DNA of 63,923 nucleotides, the filler included, from Reclinomonas americana ATCC 50394 (lineage: Eukaryota): assembly GCA_048213135.1 (NCBI GenBank). It is 6 parts of 5 records of this genome, joined end to end, with 100 filler letters (N's around TTAATTAATTAA, not from the genome) between each part and the next. Parts side by side here need not be neighbours in the genome. Positions count along the whole stretch, not along the records: positions 22,396 to 48,401 come from PS015410.1; 5 more parts are not named here. The stretch is one strand, 5' to 3'. Shown piece after piece: positions 31,553-39,470 of the stretch. Under the pieces are notes generated by a model. The model was not told where the DNA came from, did not search any database, and was given only the letters and a program-made list of their open reading frames with translations. The first letter of the stretch is position 1, and each line of letters opens with the position of its first letter. The position numbers were made by a program, and so were the translations under genes.

Positions 31553-34500
31553 TCATTCAAGCTCCAGCGTGAACTGCCCACACGCCTCGCGAATGGCTCG
31601 CATTCTGTCGAGTACCTCCTGTGCCATAGGGCGATCAATGTCGCCCCGAAGGCTCATGCAACGCATGCCGAGTTCGAACATTGGTTCGGCAATGCGCGGC
31701 GTCCACTCCACGCCACCGTCCACCAGCTCCATGACGTGCAGCGAGGCAGGCGAGCGATCCCAGGCGAGGGACCACTCGCCCACCGTCACCACAGGTTTGG
31801 CGGTGACCAGCTGTACCAGCACGACGCCCATGCTGTACACATCGTGGTCAGGCAGCGGACGTCTCGCCCGGATGGCCAGTGGATCCATATAGTCGAGTGT
31901 GCCGGCGGCGGCGGTCGACTGGGAGAAGGGAGACCGTGAGTGAGAGCGAGAGTGAAAGAAGAGAGAAGGAGAGGAAGACCAAACCTTGCCATCTGCAATC
32001 GACCGCGCAATGCCAAAGTCACCGAGACATGGCTCGAAGCGGTGATCGAGAAGCACGTTGGCGGGTTTGATGTCGCGGTGCACCACATCGTTCTGGTGAG
32101 TGGATAGAAGGGGAAAGTGAGAGGGATATGTAACGAACAGCACGACACGTGATGTGGAGTGTGATGAGTGGAAAGAAGGCATACAGGAAAGGAGAGTGAA
32201 GGAGCGAGCAGGAGGAAATGAAACGAGTAAGAAGAGCAAGATACTTGATGAAGATCCTGTTGAAAGAGCGCGAGAGAAGCTAAGGGAAAAGAGCGTGAAA
32301 GAGTGTGTGCACGAGAGAGAGAGAGAGAGAGTGAGAGTGTGCGCGAGAGAGACGGAGCGAGTTGGGGAGTACGACAGGGAGCACGAGACTCTCAACGATC
32401 GCAGGCTGCCACTCAATGCTTATTCGTGGCGAGTGAAAAGAGTGGCAAAACAGAGAACACGGGAGACTGCCAGCAACAAGGACAACGAAAGAGTCAGAAG
32501 GAGAGGCACGAGAGAAGAAGTGAGCAAAGAAGGCAGAGATAAATCTCATGTAGCGGCCCTTCGACAAGAAGTGGAGCGGAAACATGAGTGTTTGCGAGAC
32601 AAGATGAGCACGAAAGAGTGACGAGGAAAGGCACGAGAGAAGCAGAGTGCAAGGATGACTGAGAGGGAGATCACTCTCAGCGGCCCTTGTACAAGAAGTG
32701 GAGTAGAGAACATCAGGGCTTGACAGAGACAAGAACAGCACAAAGAGTGACGAGGAGAAGAGAGAAACAGGGGCTCACGCTGAGAAAAGGATGACTTAGA
32801 GGGAGATCGTTCTCACGCAGTGGACCTTGTGAAAGCATCGGAGCAGAAAAACATGGGGAATTGAGAGAGCAAAAGAGAGTGACGTGGAGAAAAGAGAACA
32901 GAGAGCTAAAGGAGAGGGAGAAAAAAGAGAGGACGGGAGATTATTCTCATGCAGCAAACCTTGTGCAAGAATGCCACAGCCTCCGCCAGTCCGAGCCCAA
33001 TTTGCACACGCTGCACGACAGAGAGTGGTGCCTGACCGGCGCGTGGCAGCAGCAACAAGTCTTCCAGGTTGGGGACTCTGTGTGTCTTTGCAGTGAGATG
33101 ATGATGGAGACAGGGGAGAAGAAGAGAGAGAGTGAACGCACTGCAGGGCCTTGTACACGAGACAGCGTGCCTTGTCGTCGCCCACCGAGAAACCGACAAG
33201 AGGAACAATGCGACGGTCGCGCAGGCGTCCGAGGGTGCCGACCTGCGAGGATGGGAAGGAAGGATGAGGAGAAAAAGGAAGAAGACAGGAGAGAAGAGAG
33301 ACACAGACCTCACTCTCAAACGACTCCATCGTCCACGGCGCTTCGGGGTCGAGCACCTTGATGGCCACGTGCATCTCGCGAAGGAGAGTGATGAACACGG
33401 CACCCTGACCACCCTCACCGACCTTGAGACGGGGGGAGAATGAGTCGGTGGCGTGCAAGATCTCGGGCCACTCGAAGCGCTGCACTGCGGTGTCGACTGT
33501 GGAATGAGAGGGATGGAGTGAGGAATGGCGTGACGAAAGAGTATCCAGAGGAAGGGATGCAGACCTTGAGCAAGGAGAAGCTCCTGTCGAAGCTGGGAGA
33601 CAAGTTGATCCTTCTCTTGAAGCTGCTGCTGCACGGTGGTCAGCTGGACGGTGAGGTCCTCCTTGTCATGCAGCGCCGCAGTCAACTGAGAAGCGATTCG
33701 ATCTCGGTCGGCTTGCAGTTGGGCGTTTTGCTGCTGCTCCCTGGCGTGCGCTTGCTGCCATTGCGTTACGGCTTGCTGCTGTTGAGCAACCTGTAGCAGC
33801 AGCTGAGCATTCTTCTGCTCATCATCGATTTTGCCATGTTGCAGCTGAGCATTGGCTTGCTGCAACCGGGCCACAATGTCCTCGTGCTCTCGTCGCTGTC
33901 GATCCCACTCTCTCTGTTGCTCATCTCTCTCTTGTTGCGCTGCGGTGAGATCGCGCTGGAGTTGAGCCACCTGACGAGTCACGGTTTCGCCGTCGACAAC
34001 CTGGACAGACAGGGACAAGGAGAATTCAATTTTTGCAATGGAGAAGGAGATGGACGACTCACGAACAGAGTCAGCCTCACCTGCCGCGCTGGCACAACTT
34101 GTTACACGGACATACACATAAATCAGTGTGAGCACTGACAAAAAGGCAACCAAACCTGAAGGTGGCGGAGATGGGGGAGATCGCGCCATTTGTTCTTGTT
34201 TTTGTTGACTTGATGGTGCTGGCTGCGCGACGAGGCGGTCGAGAAAGTCGGCCACTTGCAGCTCGCCCATCGCCCGTGCCGAATTAGCCGCCGTCTTCCC
34301 CCGCCTGTTGACCATGAGAATGAGGTCGGGATGGAGGGTGGCGAGGAGTCGCACAATGTCCTCGCGGCCTTGACCAGCAGCATAATGCAGTGCAGTATCA
34401 CCGCCCGTGCTGACCGCCCGCACCAGCTCCGGTGGACATCGTCGCTCATCTGCAAGCAACCACTCCACCACTTGCAGATGCCCACCGAAGGCAGCCATCA

Positions 34501-34748
34501 TCAGCGGCGTCACGCCATCGTCGTCGACCATTTGTGCGAGTTGTGGCCCAACGCCACTCTCCTCCCACAAATACTCCAACACAGAGAGATGGCGATTGCC
34601 AGCGGCACTAAAGAATGCCGAGCAGCCACGCTCATTCATCTCCTCGTTCTTCAGCAGCGTCTGTGCGCCCTCACTCGCCACCAACTCGCGCAGTGCCTTC
34701 ACATCGCCAACAGCTGCCATCTCCCATGCTTTCTTCCTCTGTCGTTGA
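31553..34748 (-). CDS. Ankyrin-repeat - coiled-coil - IRAK/RLK-Pelle-like Ser/Thr kinase (first exon not located)
   Basis: ANK motifs (GVTPLMMAA, GDTALHYAA); Q-rich heptad region; FEWPEILHATDSFS..KVGEGGQGAV, VAIK, HRDIKPANVLLD, DFG, GTLDYMDP, DVYSMGVVL, RP.AQEV. Confidence 0.88.
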
Positions 34749-39400: not shown

Positions 39401-39470
39401 TCTGTGGCCCGACTCGTGTCGGGCCTACAATTTTGCCTGCCCAGTGGCTCCTTACCAGGAGTACAATTGA
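35286..39470 (+). CDS. Ankyrin - TPR (kinesin-light-chain-like) - RBR (RING-IBR-RING) E3 ubiquitin ligase
   Basis: ATG exon 35286-35305 splices in phase to 35448; ANK (GWTPLMKAA, STALHFAA); TPRs (RRRVLGDDHRETL); RING1 CCNC..CGHGNCREC..C..C; IBR TKPCP..C..CVCGTRFCLRC; Rcat RACPRC..GCKHMKC..C.AEYC.RC. The gene spans three N gaps. Confidence 0.8.

What the first reader, a model, noticed from the sequence alone, without database searches (positions are those of the whole stretch)
31553..39470. Head-to-head pair sharing a duplicated ankyrin module: IRAK/Pelle-like kinase versus TPR-RBR E3 ligase
Seen: two divergent genes, roughly 0.5 kb apart or less, begin with clearly paralogous ANK blocks (KAWE.A..GDV.ALR.LV; EESGVGPQLAQ; GHLQVVEWLLADERRCPP; TALH.AA.QG...IVRLLAT..PDLI.MV...GKTAA), each preceded by a phase-2 intron, but end in different catalytic outputs. 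Established: IRAK kinases and RBR ligases both act in animal innate signalling, and paired head-to-head immune genes occur in plants. Inference: a co-regulated two-protein module in which the same target is phosphorylated and ubiquitinated, produced by inverted duplication and domain shuffling.
Basis: partly seen in the sequence, partly recalled or inferred. Interest (0 to 1): 0.78.

Follow-up and report, generated by a model that had tools for sequence, protein, structure and literature searches.

The report
Head-to-head ankyrin-headed kinase and RBR ligase
Two neighbouring, oppositely oriented eukaryotic genes start with copies of the same ankyrin-repeat head, and one continues into an IRAK/receptor-like kinase while the other most likely continues into an RBR ubiquitin ligase; the copy is old and conserved, but whether the two enzymes work together is untested.

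Summary
Two ankyrin (ANK) exons lie head-to-head (34748-34151 minus; 35448-~36040 plus). They are 61% identical over 173 aa (E 2e-64), and they are the only two copies in the window.

- **Minus gene:** a phase-consistent 8-exon, 653-aa model of ANK, coiled coil and kinase. The kinase has intact catalytic motifs. Its best solved relatives are IRAK4, Pto, FERONIA, IRAK1 and LysM receptor kinases. There is no death domain.
- **Plus gene:** a TPR_10/12 block followed by RING1-IBR-Rcat exons that join in phase. The Rcat carries the catalytic cysteine and aligns to HHARI and parkin.
- **Unproven junction:** the join from the ANK exon to the TPR exon crosses an assembly gap and has no clean donor site.
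- **Age of the duplication:** old and under purifying selection, with dS about 1.1 and dN/dS about 0.28. DNA similarity is confined to the ANK exon.
- **Third family member:** found in an EST-derived protein at 71% identity.
- **Binding surface:** canonical ANK contact positions have diverged (7 of 24 identical against 97 of 138 elsewhere), which argues against one shared target bound in the usual groove.

Inverted duplication plus domain shuffling is supported. A co-regulated module acting on the same target is untested, because no RNA data, genome or relatives were available. I rate this a new variant of known kinds, of moderate interest.

The parts
35018..35064 (-). Predicted exon 1 of the kinase gene (ATG at 35064, 47 nt, donor GTGAGG, phase 2)
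   Evidence: Reading of the minus strand. The model is in frame. No transcript evidence. The related EST protein starts at the Met inside the ANK exon instead.
34151..34748 (-). ANK-head exon of the kinase gene (five ankyrin repeats); the 3' end is ambiguous
   Evidence: Pfam Ank_2 1.5e-18. AlphaFold2 pLDDT 90.5 with five helix pairs. Foldseek top hits are DARPins. Several in-frame donor/acceptor pairs are possible at the 3' end.
33565..34000 (-). Gln-rich helical exon of about 145 aa, a presumed coiled coil
   Evidence: Open frame, with only weak coiled-coil-type Pfam matches (Cep57_CLD_2 E 0.0014, XRCC4_CC E 0.19). Calling it a coiled coil is inference from composition.
31553..33496 (-). Kinase domain in five exons (33496-33309, 33242-33142, 33077-32960, 32092-31985, 31918-31553 including the stop)
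   Evidence: All junctions are GT-AG and in phase, with a single terminal stop. Pfam Pkinase 5.9e-17. PDB best hits are IRAK4 at 1e-10, then Pto, FERONIA and IRAK1. The N-lobe hits LysM-RLK, CERK1 and IRAK1.
35065..35285 (.). 221-bp spacer between the two predicted start codons; a candidate bidirectional promoter
   Evidence: Coordinates. The promoter function is inferred and untested.
35286..35305 (+). Predicted exon 1 of the plus gene (ATG, 20 nt, donor GTGAGT, phase 2)
   Evidence: Reading. The acceptor at 35448 was checked.
35448..36040 (+). ANK-head exon of the plus gene; the 3' end is unresolved
   Evidence: Pfam Ank_2 1.3e-21. 61% identical to the minus-strand head. No clean phase-2 donor. 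Followed by CTT/CT/CCT microsatellites and the gap at 36146-36323.
36541..38212 (+). Large exon holding two TPR_10/TPR_12 blocks and the first six ligands of RING1
   Evidence: Pfam TPR_12 1.7e-31 and TPR_10 3.6e-27. The first Met is at residue 132, so an upstream coding exon is needed. The RING1 Cys/His pattern was read. RING1 has no Pfam or PDB hit.
38300..38568 (+). Micro-exon 38300-38324 (last Cys pair of RING1) and linker exon 38444-38568 (ends in CPS)
   Evidence: Phase-consistent GT-AG junctions. The 20-N gap at 38258-38277 lies in the preceding intron.
38930..39247 (+). IBR/BRcat exon 38930-39103, and exon 38154-style follow-on 39154-39247 that ends in the CPRC start of Rcat
   Evidence: Pfam IBR E 0.0011, below the cutoff. 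The only PDB match is the ARIH1 IBR at E 4. The junctions are in phase. The 289-N gap lies in the preceding intron.
39307..39470 (+). Rcat (RING2) exon with the catalytic cysteine motif GCKHMKC, and the stop codon
   Evidence: PDB: HHARI RING2 at 6.7e-5 and parkin at 7e-4, with the catalytic Cys column aligned.

Best explanation
This locus holds two intact genes that were built on an old local inverted duplication of one ankyrin-head exon. After the duplication, each copy came to be joined to different downstream domains.

**Gene 1 (minus strand, about 653 aa).**
- It consists of five ANK repeats, a helix of about 145 aa that is probably a coiled coil, and a Ser/Thr kinase of the RLK/Pelle/IRAK family. 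The kinase has a complete catalytic apparatus.
- The likely mechanism is that the coiled coil dimerises the protein, the ANK head docks it on a partner, and the kinase domains activate each other in trans.

**Gene 2 (plus strand, at least 950 aa if the ANK exon is joined).**
- It consists of the ANK head, two TPR_10/12 blocks and an RBR ubiquitin ligase.
- RING1 would bind an E2~ubiquitin. Ubiquitin would pass to the Rcat cysteine in GCKHMKC and then to a substrate held by the TPR or ANK parts.

**The ANK head.** It belongs to a small lineage-specific family with at least three members. The family is marked by unusually long, almost invariant loops between repeats (EESGVGPQLAQ and ADERRCPP). 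Those loops, rather than the usual concave groove, are the best candidate for any function the heads share.

**Shown:** the domains, orientation, paralogy, age and selection of the heads, and the kinase and RBR exon models.

**Inferred:** the first exons, the ANK-to-TPR splice, dimerisation, the shared promoter, and any functional coupling between the two enzymes.
For: - **Paralogy:** 61% identity, E 2e-64. Only two copies in the window.
- **Extent of the duplication:** DNA similarity covers only 34732-34239 against 35458-35969, at 69%.
- **Age and selection:** over 173 codons, dS 1.07, dN 0.30, ratio 0.28. Over 191 codons, dS 1.20, dN 0.36.
- **Third member:** P0241 is 71% identical to head 1 and comes from an EST-derived entry.
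- **ANK fold:** pLDDT 90.5 with five repeats. The closest solved folds are consensus DARPins, TM 0.69/0.85.
- **Kinase model:** 8 exons, all GT-AG, one terminal stop. The motifs GEGGQGAV, VAIK, HRDIKPAN and DFG were read in the output.
- **Kinase family:** PDB hits.
- **RBR:** the RING1-IBR-Rcat exons join in phase. The Rcat matches HHARI and parkin.
- **TPR:**
- **Need for an upstream exon:** the TPR exon lacks a start codon until residue 132.
- **Conserved loops:** 11/13 and 11/14 identical between the two heads.
Against: - I had no transcript data, so both first exons, the 3' end of each ANK exon and the ANK-TPR junction are unverified.
- No clean phase-2 donor follows the plus-strand ANK domain, and a 178-N gap lies between ANK and TPR.
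- RING1 has no Pfam or PDB match, and its sixth ligand is spaced x5 instead of x2.
- The IBR match is below Pfam's cutoff, and its usual His is replaced.
- The Glu of the kinase APE motif is replaced by Leu (alignment).
- The PDB scores for IRAK4 (44.8 bits) and bacterial PknB (42.3 bits) are close, and I built no tree.
- The coiled coil is inferred from composition and weak Pfam hits only.
Confidence: 0.6

Rival explanations
1. The pair is a selected, co-regulated kinase-E3 module. A shared promoter drives both genes, and the paralogous ANK heads bring both enzymes to the same partner or hub. That partner, or each enzyme in turn, is then both phosphorylated and ubiquitinated.
For: - The predicted start codons are 221 bp apart and divergent.
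- Both heads have been kept under purifying selection since an old duplication, and they are still adjacent.
- The long inter-repeat loops are nearly invariant in all three family members.
- Precedent from recall: IRAK-Pellino, and plant receptor kinases with U-box or ANK-RING ligases.
- The XB3 family of ANK-RING ligases is named after an XA21-kinase-binding protein (search listing and abstract starts only).
Against: - Canonical ANK contact positions are 7/24 identical against 97/138 elsewhere, p = 3e-4.
- A third head exists outside this pair, so the head is not exclusive to the two genes.
- A younger inverted duplication of NACHT-WD40 genes flanks the locus, so head-to-head paralogues arise here by mutation alone.
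- No expression, interaction or synteny data could be obtained.
Confidence: 0.2
2. The plus strand holds two genes rather than one. A short ANK-only gene ends in or before the gap. A separate TPR-RBR gene has its first exon hidden in the gap at 36146-36323.
For: - No good phase-2 donor follows the ANK domain.
- The gap and the flanking microsatellites leave the region unresolved.
- The only related sequence found is a 154-aa ANK-only ORF from an EST, though its end looks truncated or frameshifted.
Against: - The TPR exon has no Met before residue 132 and begins at a strong acceptor, so it needs an upstream coding exon.
- The stated gap is 178 N and is flanked by intron-like repeats, which leaves little room for a promoter plus a first exon.
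- ANK plus RBR is a known combination: ANKIB1 (passages read in PMC3940038).
Confidence: 0.3
3. The two ANK heads bind each other, which would tether the kinase directly to the ligase.
For: None beyond the shared fold and the conserved loops.
Against: Nothing bears directly on this. ANK domains usually bind other proteins rather than one another (recalled).
Confidence: 0.05
4. One or both genes are decaying duplicates (pseudogenes), or the arrangement is an assembly artefact.
For: - There are many gaps in the scaffold.
- RING1 and IBR are atypical.
Against: - dN/dS is 0.28 at dS of about 1.
- Both models are open with a single stop each.
- The catalytic motifs are intact.
- The copies are 69% identical in DNA, far too diverged to be a collapsed or duplicated assembly error.
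Confidence: 0.07

Closest known systems
ANKIB1 (animal RBR ligase with ankyrin repeats)
   Same: It has ankyrin repeats N-terminal to a RING1-IBR-Rcat module with a catalytic cysteine (PMC3940038, passages read).
   Different: ANKIB1 has two ANK repeats and a C-terminal Ariadne autoinhibitory domain. In this gene the head has five repeats and about 500 aa of TPR_10/12 lie between ANK and RBR. The protein stops about 30 residues after the Rcat zinc ligands, so there is no Ariadne domain. RING1 and IBR are atypical.
IRAK/Pelle kinases of animals and RLK/RLCK kinases of plants
   Same: The kinase domain's best solved relatives are IRAK4, IRAK1, Pto, FERONIA, CERK1 and LysM-RLKs. The motif just before the kinase (F-x-W-x-E-I-x-x-A-T-x-x-F-S) aligns with that of LysM-RLK.
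   Different: There is no death domain (IRAK) and no signal peptide, ectodomain or clear membrane span (RLK). An ANK head and a coiled coil take their place. None of the 150 nearest kinases in a 1.84-billion-protein library carries an ANK domain by the family profile (0 of 150; positive control 120 of 120).
XB3-type ANK-RING ligases with receptor kinase XA21; IRAK with Pellino
   Same: These are a kinase of this superfamily working with an E3 ligase, and in XB3 the ligase carries ANK repeats (listing and abstract starts only; the binding details are recalled).
   Different: Those ligases are RING or FHA-RING types rather than RBR. The kinase itself has no ANK head, and the partners are not neighbouring paralogue-headed genes.
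ANK-bearing kinases ILK, RIPK4 and ANKK1 (recalled)
   Same: Ankyrin repeats are fused to a TKL-group kinase domain.
   Different: They belong to different kinase subfamilies with a different domain order (RIPK4 and ANKK1 have the kinase first), and ILK is a pseudokinase. I did not test these comparisons here.
Head-to-head paired NLR genes of plants (recalled)
   Same: They are divergent neighbouring genes that share a duplicated domain and may work as a pair.
   Different: Those pairs share the whole NLR architecture and are genetically shown to act together. In this locus only the head is shared, and no functional data exist.

Membership tests
Ankyrin repeat domain | Stacked 33-residue helix-turn-helix repeats recognised by Pfam Ank models | tested here: met
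   Ank_2 at 1.5e-18 and 1.3e-21. The AF2 model has five repeats at pLDDT 90.5. Foldseek top hits are DARPins.
RLK/Pelle/IRAK kinase family (TKL group) | Active protein-kinase motifs (Gly loop, VAIK Lys, HRD, DFG) | tested here: met
   GEGGQGAV, VAIK, HRDIKPAN and DFG are present in the spliced model. Pkinase at 5.9e-17 on the C-lobe ORF. The APE Glu is replaced by Leu (alignment).
RLK/Pelle/IRAK kinase family (TKL group) | Closest relatives are family members rather than other kinase groups | tested here: inconclusive
   Top PDB hits on both lobes are IRAK4, IRAK1, Pto, FERONIA, CERK1 and LysM-RLK. PknB scores only 2.5 bits less, and I built no phylogeny. Of the 150 nearest library proteins I read only 3 by eye; those look like plant-type receptor kinases.
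IRAK proper (animal IRAK1-4, Pelle) | N-terminal death domain | tested here: not met
   Pfam on the ORFs covering everything upstream of the kinase finds only ANK families and weak coiled-coil matches.
RBR E3 ligase | Rcat (RING2) with the catalytic cysteine | tested here: met
   GCKHMKC aligns to GCNHMVC of HHARI (6.7e-5) and GCMHMKC of parkin (7e-4). The full C-x2-C ... C-x-H-x2-C-x4-C-x4-C-x2-C pattern is present.
RBR E3 ligase | IBR/BRcat between the two RING-like domains | tested here: inconclusive
   Pfam IBR at E 0.0011, 19.4 bits against a cutoff of 24.3. The sole PDB hit is the ARIH1 IBR at E 4. The usual His is replaced, and a C-x4-C pair follows 13 residues later.
RBR E3 ligase | RING1 of C3HC4 type that binds the E2 | tested here: inconclusive
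   Eight Cys/His ligands are present in order, but the fifth and sixth are spaced x5. There is no Pfam or PDB match.
RBR E3 ligase | RING1-IBR-Rcat in that order in one reading frame | tested here: met
   Six exons join through GT-AG introns in consistent phase with one terminal stop. No transcript evidence.
ANKIB1 / Ariadne subfamily | C-terminal Ariadne domain after the Rcat | tested here: not met
   The reading frame stops at 39468-39470, about 30 residues after the last Rcat ligand.
TPR_10/TPR_12 repeat proteins | Pfam TPR_12/TPR_10 above the gathering score | tested here: met
   108.6 and 94 bits. The nearest sequences are bacterial NB-ARC-TPR proteins at 25-48% identity (best 120 of 668 listed).
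Functionally paired head-to-head genes | Co-expression, physical or genetic interaction, and conserved linkage | not testable with these tools
   No run listed, no genome held, and no related loci.

The most novel reading that the evidence does not exclude
The pair is an anciently maintained, bidirectionally transcribed signalling cassette. A family-specific ankyrin head, acting through its invariant long loops, docks both an IRAK/RLK-type kinase and an RBR ubiquitin ligase on one hub. Phosphorylation and ubiquitination of that hub, or of each other, would then be hard-wired at the gene level. The cassette sits inside an island of duplicated NACHT-WD40 STAND genes. That setting would make it a protist or algal counterpart of the IRAK-Pellino and RLK-E3 immune modules.
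Probability: 0.15. Interest if true: 0.65.

Novelty: new variant of a known kind. Interest (0 to 1): 0.38.

Why it matters
Kinases of the IRAK/receptor-like family and ubiquitin ligases work together in both animal and plant immunity, and how such partnerships first arose is unclear. This locus shows a simple route. One protein-binding head was duplicated in place and then grafted onto a kinase on one side and onto an RBR ligase on the other.

If the two heads still recognise a common partner, the locus would be a compact, testable example of how a kinase-ligase pair can be born from one exon. If they do not, it is an ordinary case of exon duplication and domain shuffling. Even then it adds two domain combinations that I did not find elsewhere: ANK-coiled coil-RLK/Pelle kinase and ANK-TPR-RBR.

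Tried and rejected
- **Whole genome:** none is held for this window, so I could not make the assembly-wide census of the ANK head.
- **Sequencing runs:** none was listed, and no RNA holder was listed.
- **Metagenome scans:** two scans, one with head 1 and one with the two-head alignment. 208 and 496 pattern matches were found, and none was confirmed by tblastn. In the second scan the patterns chosen by the tool were not the most conserved stretches.
- **ANK head against longer proteins:** only generic multi-ANK proteins came back.
- **TPR exon search:** only generic bacterial and other TPR proteins came back.
- **Kinase C-lobe against 1.84 billion representatives:** the single hit below 1e-30 (P0253) is a gene model with one exon repeated about 15 times, so it is not a close relative.
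- **The listing of cluster members for the EST-derived hit:** switched off, so I could not read that entry's organism and names.
- **Complex prediction of head 1 with head 2:** 'no answer' (score 0.00, mark 0.34). This is not evidence either way.
- **RING1 piece:** no PDB or Pfam hit.
- **A transmembrane reading** of the hydrophobic stretch after head 1 (34150-34100): I considered it and set it aside. The stretch is T-rich like the local introns, and several in-phase splice pairs remove it. It is not excluded.
- **ESM Atlas:** only generic short ANK clusters, most commonly Chlorophyta. This is a lead only.
- **Literature:** full-text searches for ANK+TPR+RBR architectures and for IRAK/Pelle+ankyrin in protist kinomes listed no paper describing this pair. 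I read titles and abstract starts only, apart from passages of PMC3940038.
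Full report
**What the window is.** The sequence is eukaryotic. It has short GT-AG introns of 50-870 nt, CT- and GA-rich microsatellites, about 55% G+C and 23 runs of N. Everything below therefore rests on the window itself and on protein and structure libraries.

**The observation.**
- The two ankyrin blocks are real and specific. BLASTP of the two translated exons gives 105/173 identities (61%), E 2e-64.
- tblastn finds exactly these two copies in the window, and the repeat finder reports them as inverted arms.
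- A search of longer proteins in a 5.8-billion-cluster collection returned only generic multi-ANK proteins. None was more than 47% identical, and then only over short parts (124 hits among 3058 candidates, best 120 listed).
- Both exons begin at strong acceptors in phase 2, offset by two codons relative to the shared KAWE motif. The candidate first exons are 47 nt (ATG at 35064, minus) and 20 nt (ATG at 35286, plus).
- This puts the start codons 221 bp apart and the ANK exons 699 bp apart. These first exons are predictions.
- The one related sequence found starts at the Met that lies inside the ANK exon. Head 1 has that Met and head 2 does not.

**The minus-strand gene.**
- An eight-exon model is GT-AG throughout, consistent in phase, and ends in a single stop, giving 653 aa. 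The exons are 35064-35018, 34748-34151, 34000-33565, 33496-33309, 33242-33142, 33077-32960, 32092-31985 and 31918-31553.
- Only the junction after the ANK exon is ambiguous. Several in-frame donor/acceptor pairs exist, and the frame is also open without splicing.
- The head folds as five ankyrin repeats (AlphaFold2 pLDDT 90.5) and is closest to consensus DARPins.
- A Gln-rich helical stretch of about 145 aa follows. It gives only weak coiled-coil-type Pfam matches.
- The kinase has GEGGQGAV, VAIK, HRDIKPAN and DFG. Its C-lobe hits IRAK4 best (1e-10), then PknB, Pto, FERONIA, IRAK1, SymRK, BRI1, BAK1 and CERK1.
- Its N-lobe, together with the motif just before the kinase, aligns with LysM receptor kinases, CERK1 and IRAK1.
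- There is no death domain. The kinase therefore belongs to the RLK/Pelle/IRAK family by domain but is not an IRAK proper. The Glu of the APE motif is replaced by Leu.
- In a library of 1.84 billion representatives the C-lobe has 330 hits below 1e-10. The only one below 1e-30 is an artefactual repeated-exon model.
- None of the best 150 carries an ANK domain by a profile built from the head family (0 of 150), while the same profile finds 120 of 120 known ANK proteins.

**The plus-strand gene.**
- From the acceptor at 36541, a large exon encodes two TPR_10/TPR_12 blocks (TPR_12 1.7e-31). Their nearest relatives are bacterial NB-ARC-TPR proteins at 25-48% identity.
- The same exon runs into RING1. 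Five further exons follow: 38300-38324, 38444-38568, 38930-39103, 39154-39247 and 39307-39470. They join in phase and give RING1, a linker, the IBR and the Rcat, with one stop.
- The N gaps at 38258-38277 and 38619-38907 both fall inside predicted introns whose flanking phases agree.
- The Rcat is canonical. GCKHMKC aligns with the catalytic-cysteine motif of HHARI (6.7e-5) and parkin (7e-4).
- The IBR is weak: Pfam E 0.0011, below the cutoff, and ARIH1 at E 4. It lacks the usual His.
- RING1 has all eight ligands, but the fifth and sixth are spaced x5, and it has no database match.
- The protein ends about 30 residues after the Rcat, so it has no Ariadne domain. That separates it from ANKIB1, the known ANK-RBR ligase (PMC3940038, passages read).
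- The link between the ANK exon and the TPR exon is the weak point. The TPR acceptor is phase 2, and no good phase-2 donor follows the ANK domain. The interval is microsatellite DNA plus a 178-N gap.
- In favour of one gene, the TPR exon has no Met before residue 132 and begins at a strong acceptor, so it needs an upstream coding exon. I put about 0.7 on a single ANK-TPR-RBR gene.

**History of the duplication.**
- Nucleotide similarity (69% over 513 nt) is confined to the ANK exon. The introns, first exons and spacer are unrelated.
- By the Nei-Gojobori method, dS is 1.07 and dN 0.30 over 173 codons (ratio 0.28). Over 191 codons dS is 1.20 and dN 0.36.
- The duplication is therefore old, both copies are under purifying selection, and an assembly artefact is excluded.
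- A third family member exists. P0241 is a 154-aa ORF from an EST-derived EukProt entry. It was aligned at 71% (BLASTP) or 67% (multiple alignment) identity to head 1, and it mixes features of both heads.
- It was the only specific hit among 12 proteins below 1e-8. I could not read its organism or names.

**Do the heads share a target?**
- I used the DARPin register for target-contact positions. That register is recalled, but the fold match supports it.
- The two heads are identical at 7 of 24 contact positions against 97 of 138 other positions (Fisher p = 3e-4). The comparisons with P0241 give 6/18 against 90/113, and 4/18 against 79/113.
- The unusually long loops between repeats are nearly invariant: EESGVGPQLAQMV at 11/13 and ADERRCPPELVRAV at 11/14.
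- Variable contact positions are normal among ANK paralogues, so this does not exclude a common partner. It does move the candidate shared surface from the groove to these loops.
- A complex prediction of the two heads gave no answer and is not used as evidence.

**Context.**
- The pair lies between two intronless NACHT-WD40 ORFs in inverted orientation (9057-13457 plus, 48573-52844 minus). They are 79% identical in protein and 82.5% identical in DNA over 4.7 kb. The NACHT domain scores above Pfam's cutoff.
- A partial third copy of their N-terminal region lies at 7387-8217.
- A UPF1-like helicase lies at 40.4-46.1 kb on the minus strand.
- The younger inverted duplication shows that inverted paralogues arise in this region by mutation alone.

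**Verdict.**
The evolutionary inference of inverted duplication followed by domain shuffling is supported.
- The functional inference of a co-regulated module acting on the same target is plausible by analogy with known kinase-E3 pairs. The XB3 family is known to me from listing and abstract starts only, and the IRAK-Pellino example is recalled. The inference is untested here, and I give it about 0.2.
- Full-text searches listed no description of this pair or of these two architectures. I read only titles and abstract starts, and supplementary files were not consulted.
- I rate it a new variant of known kinds, of moderate interest.

Noticed in passing
window 9057-13457 (+) and 48573-52844 (-); partial copy 7387-8217: Two intronless ORFs of about 1,450 aa encode NACHT plus about 13 WD40 repeats. 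They sit in inverted orientation on either side of the finding. They are 79% identical in protein and 82.5% in DNA over 4.7 kb, so this duplication is younger than the ANK one. A third partial copy of the N-terminal region lies just upstream of the first ORF.
   Followed up: partly
window 32456-32977 (minus-strand kinase intron, 867 nt): About four tandem units of about 130 nt fill the large kinase intron. The first unit overlaps the exon-6 donor, so each unit carries a diverged copy of the exon/intron boundary and could offer alternative donors.
   Followed up: no
window 40383-46111 (-): Exons of a UPF1/MOV10-like helicase (Pfam AAA_11 and AAA_12) lie downstream of the RBR gene and converge on it.
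   Followed up: partly
window 22296-22395, 48402-48501, 54428-54527, 58359-58458, 62352-62451: Recurrent pairs of 44-N runs separated by exactly 12 bases, plus many 20-N runs. This looks like an assembly or masking convention rather than biology.
   Followed up: no
window 40895-41519: A tandem array of units of about 100 nt (72-76% identity between copies), in or near the 3' part of the helicase gene.
   Followed up: no
window 31850-31900 (-) and 39010-39050 (+): Two conserved-motif departures. The Glu of the kinase APE motif is replaced by Leu (YMDPL). The usual IBR His is replaced by Ile, and a C-x4-C pair follows 13 residues later.
   Followed up: partly
window 34100-34150 (-): If it is not spliced out, the stretch after the first ANK head encodes a hydrophobic run of about 16 residues. 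That run could be a membrane span between the head and the coiled coil. It is T-rich like the local introns.
   Followed up: partly
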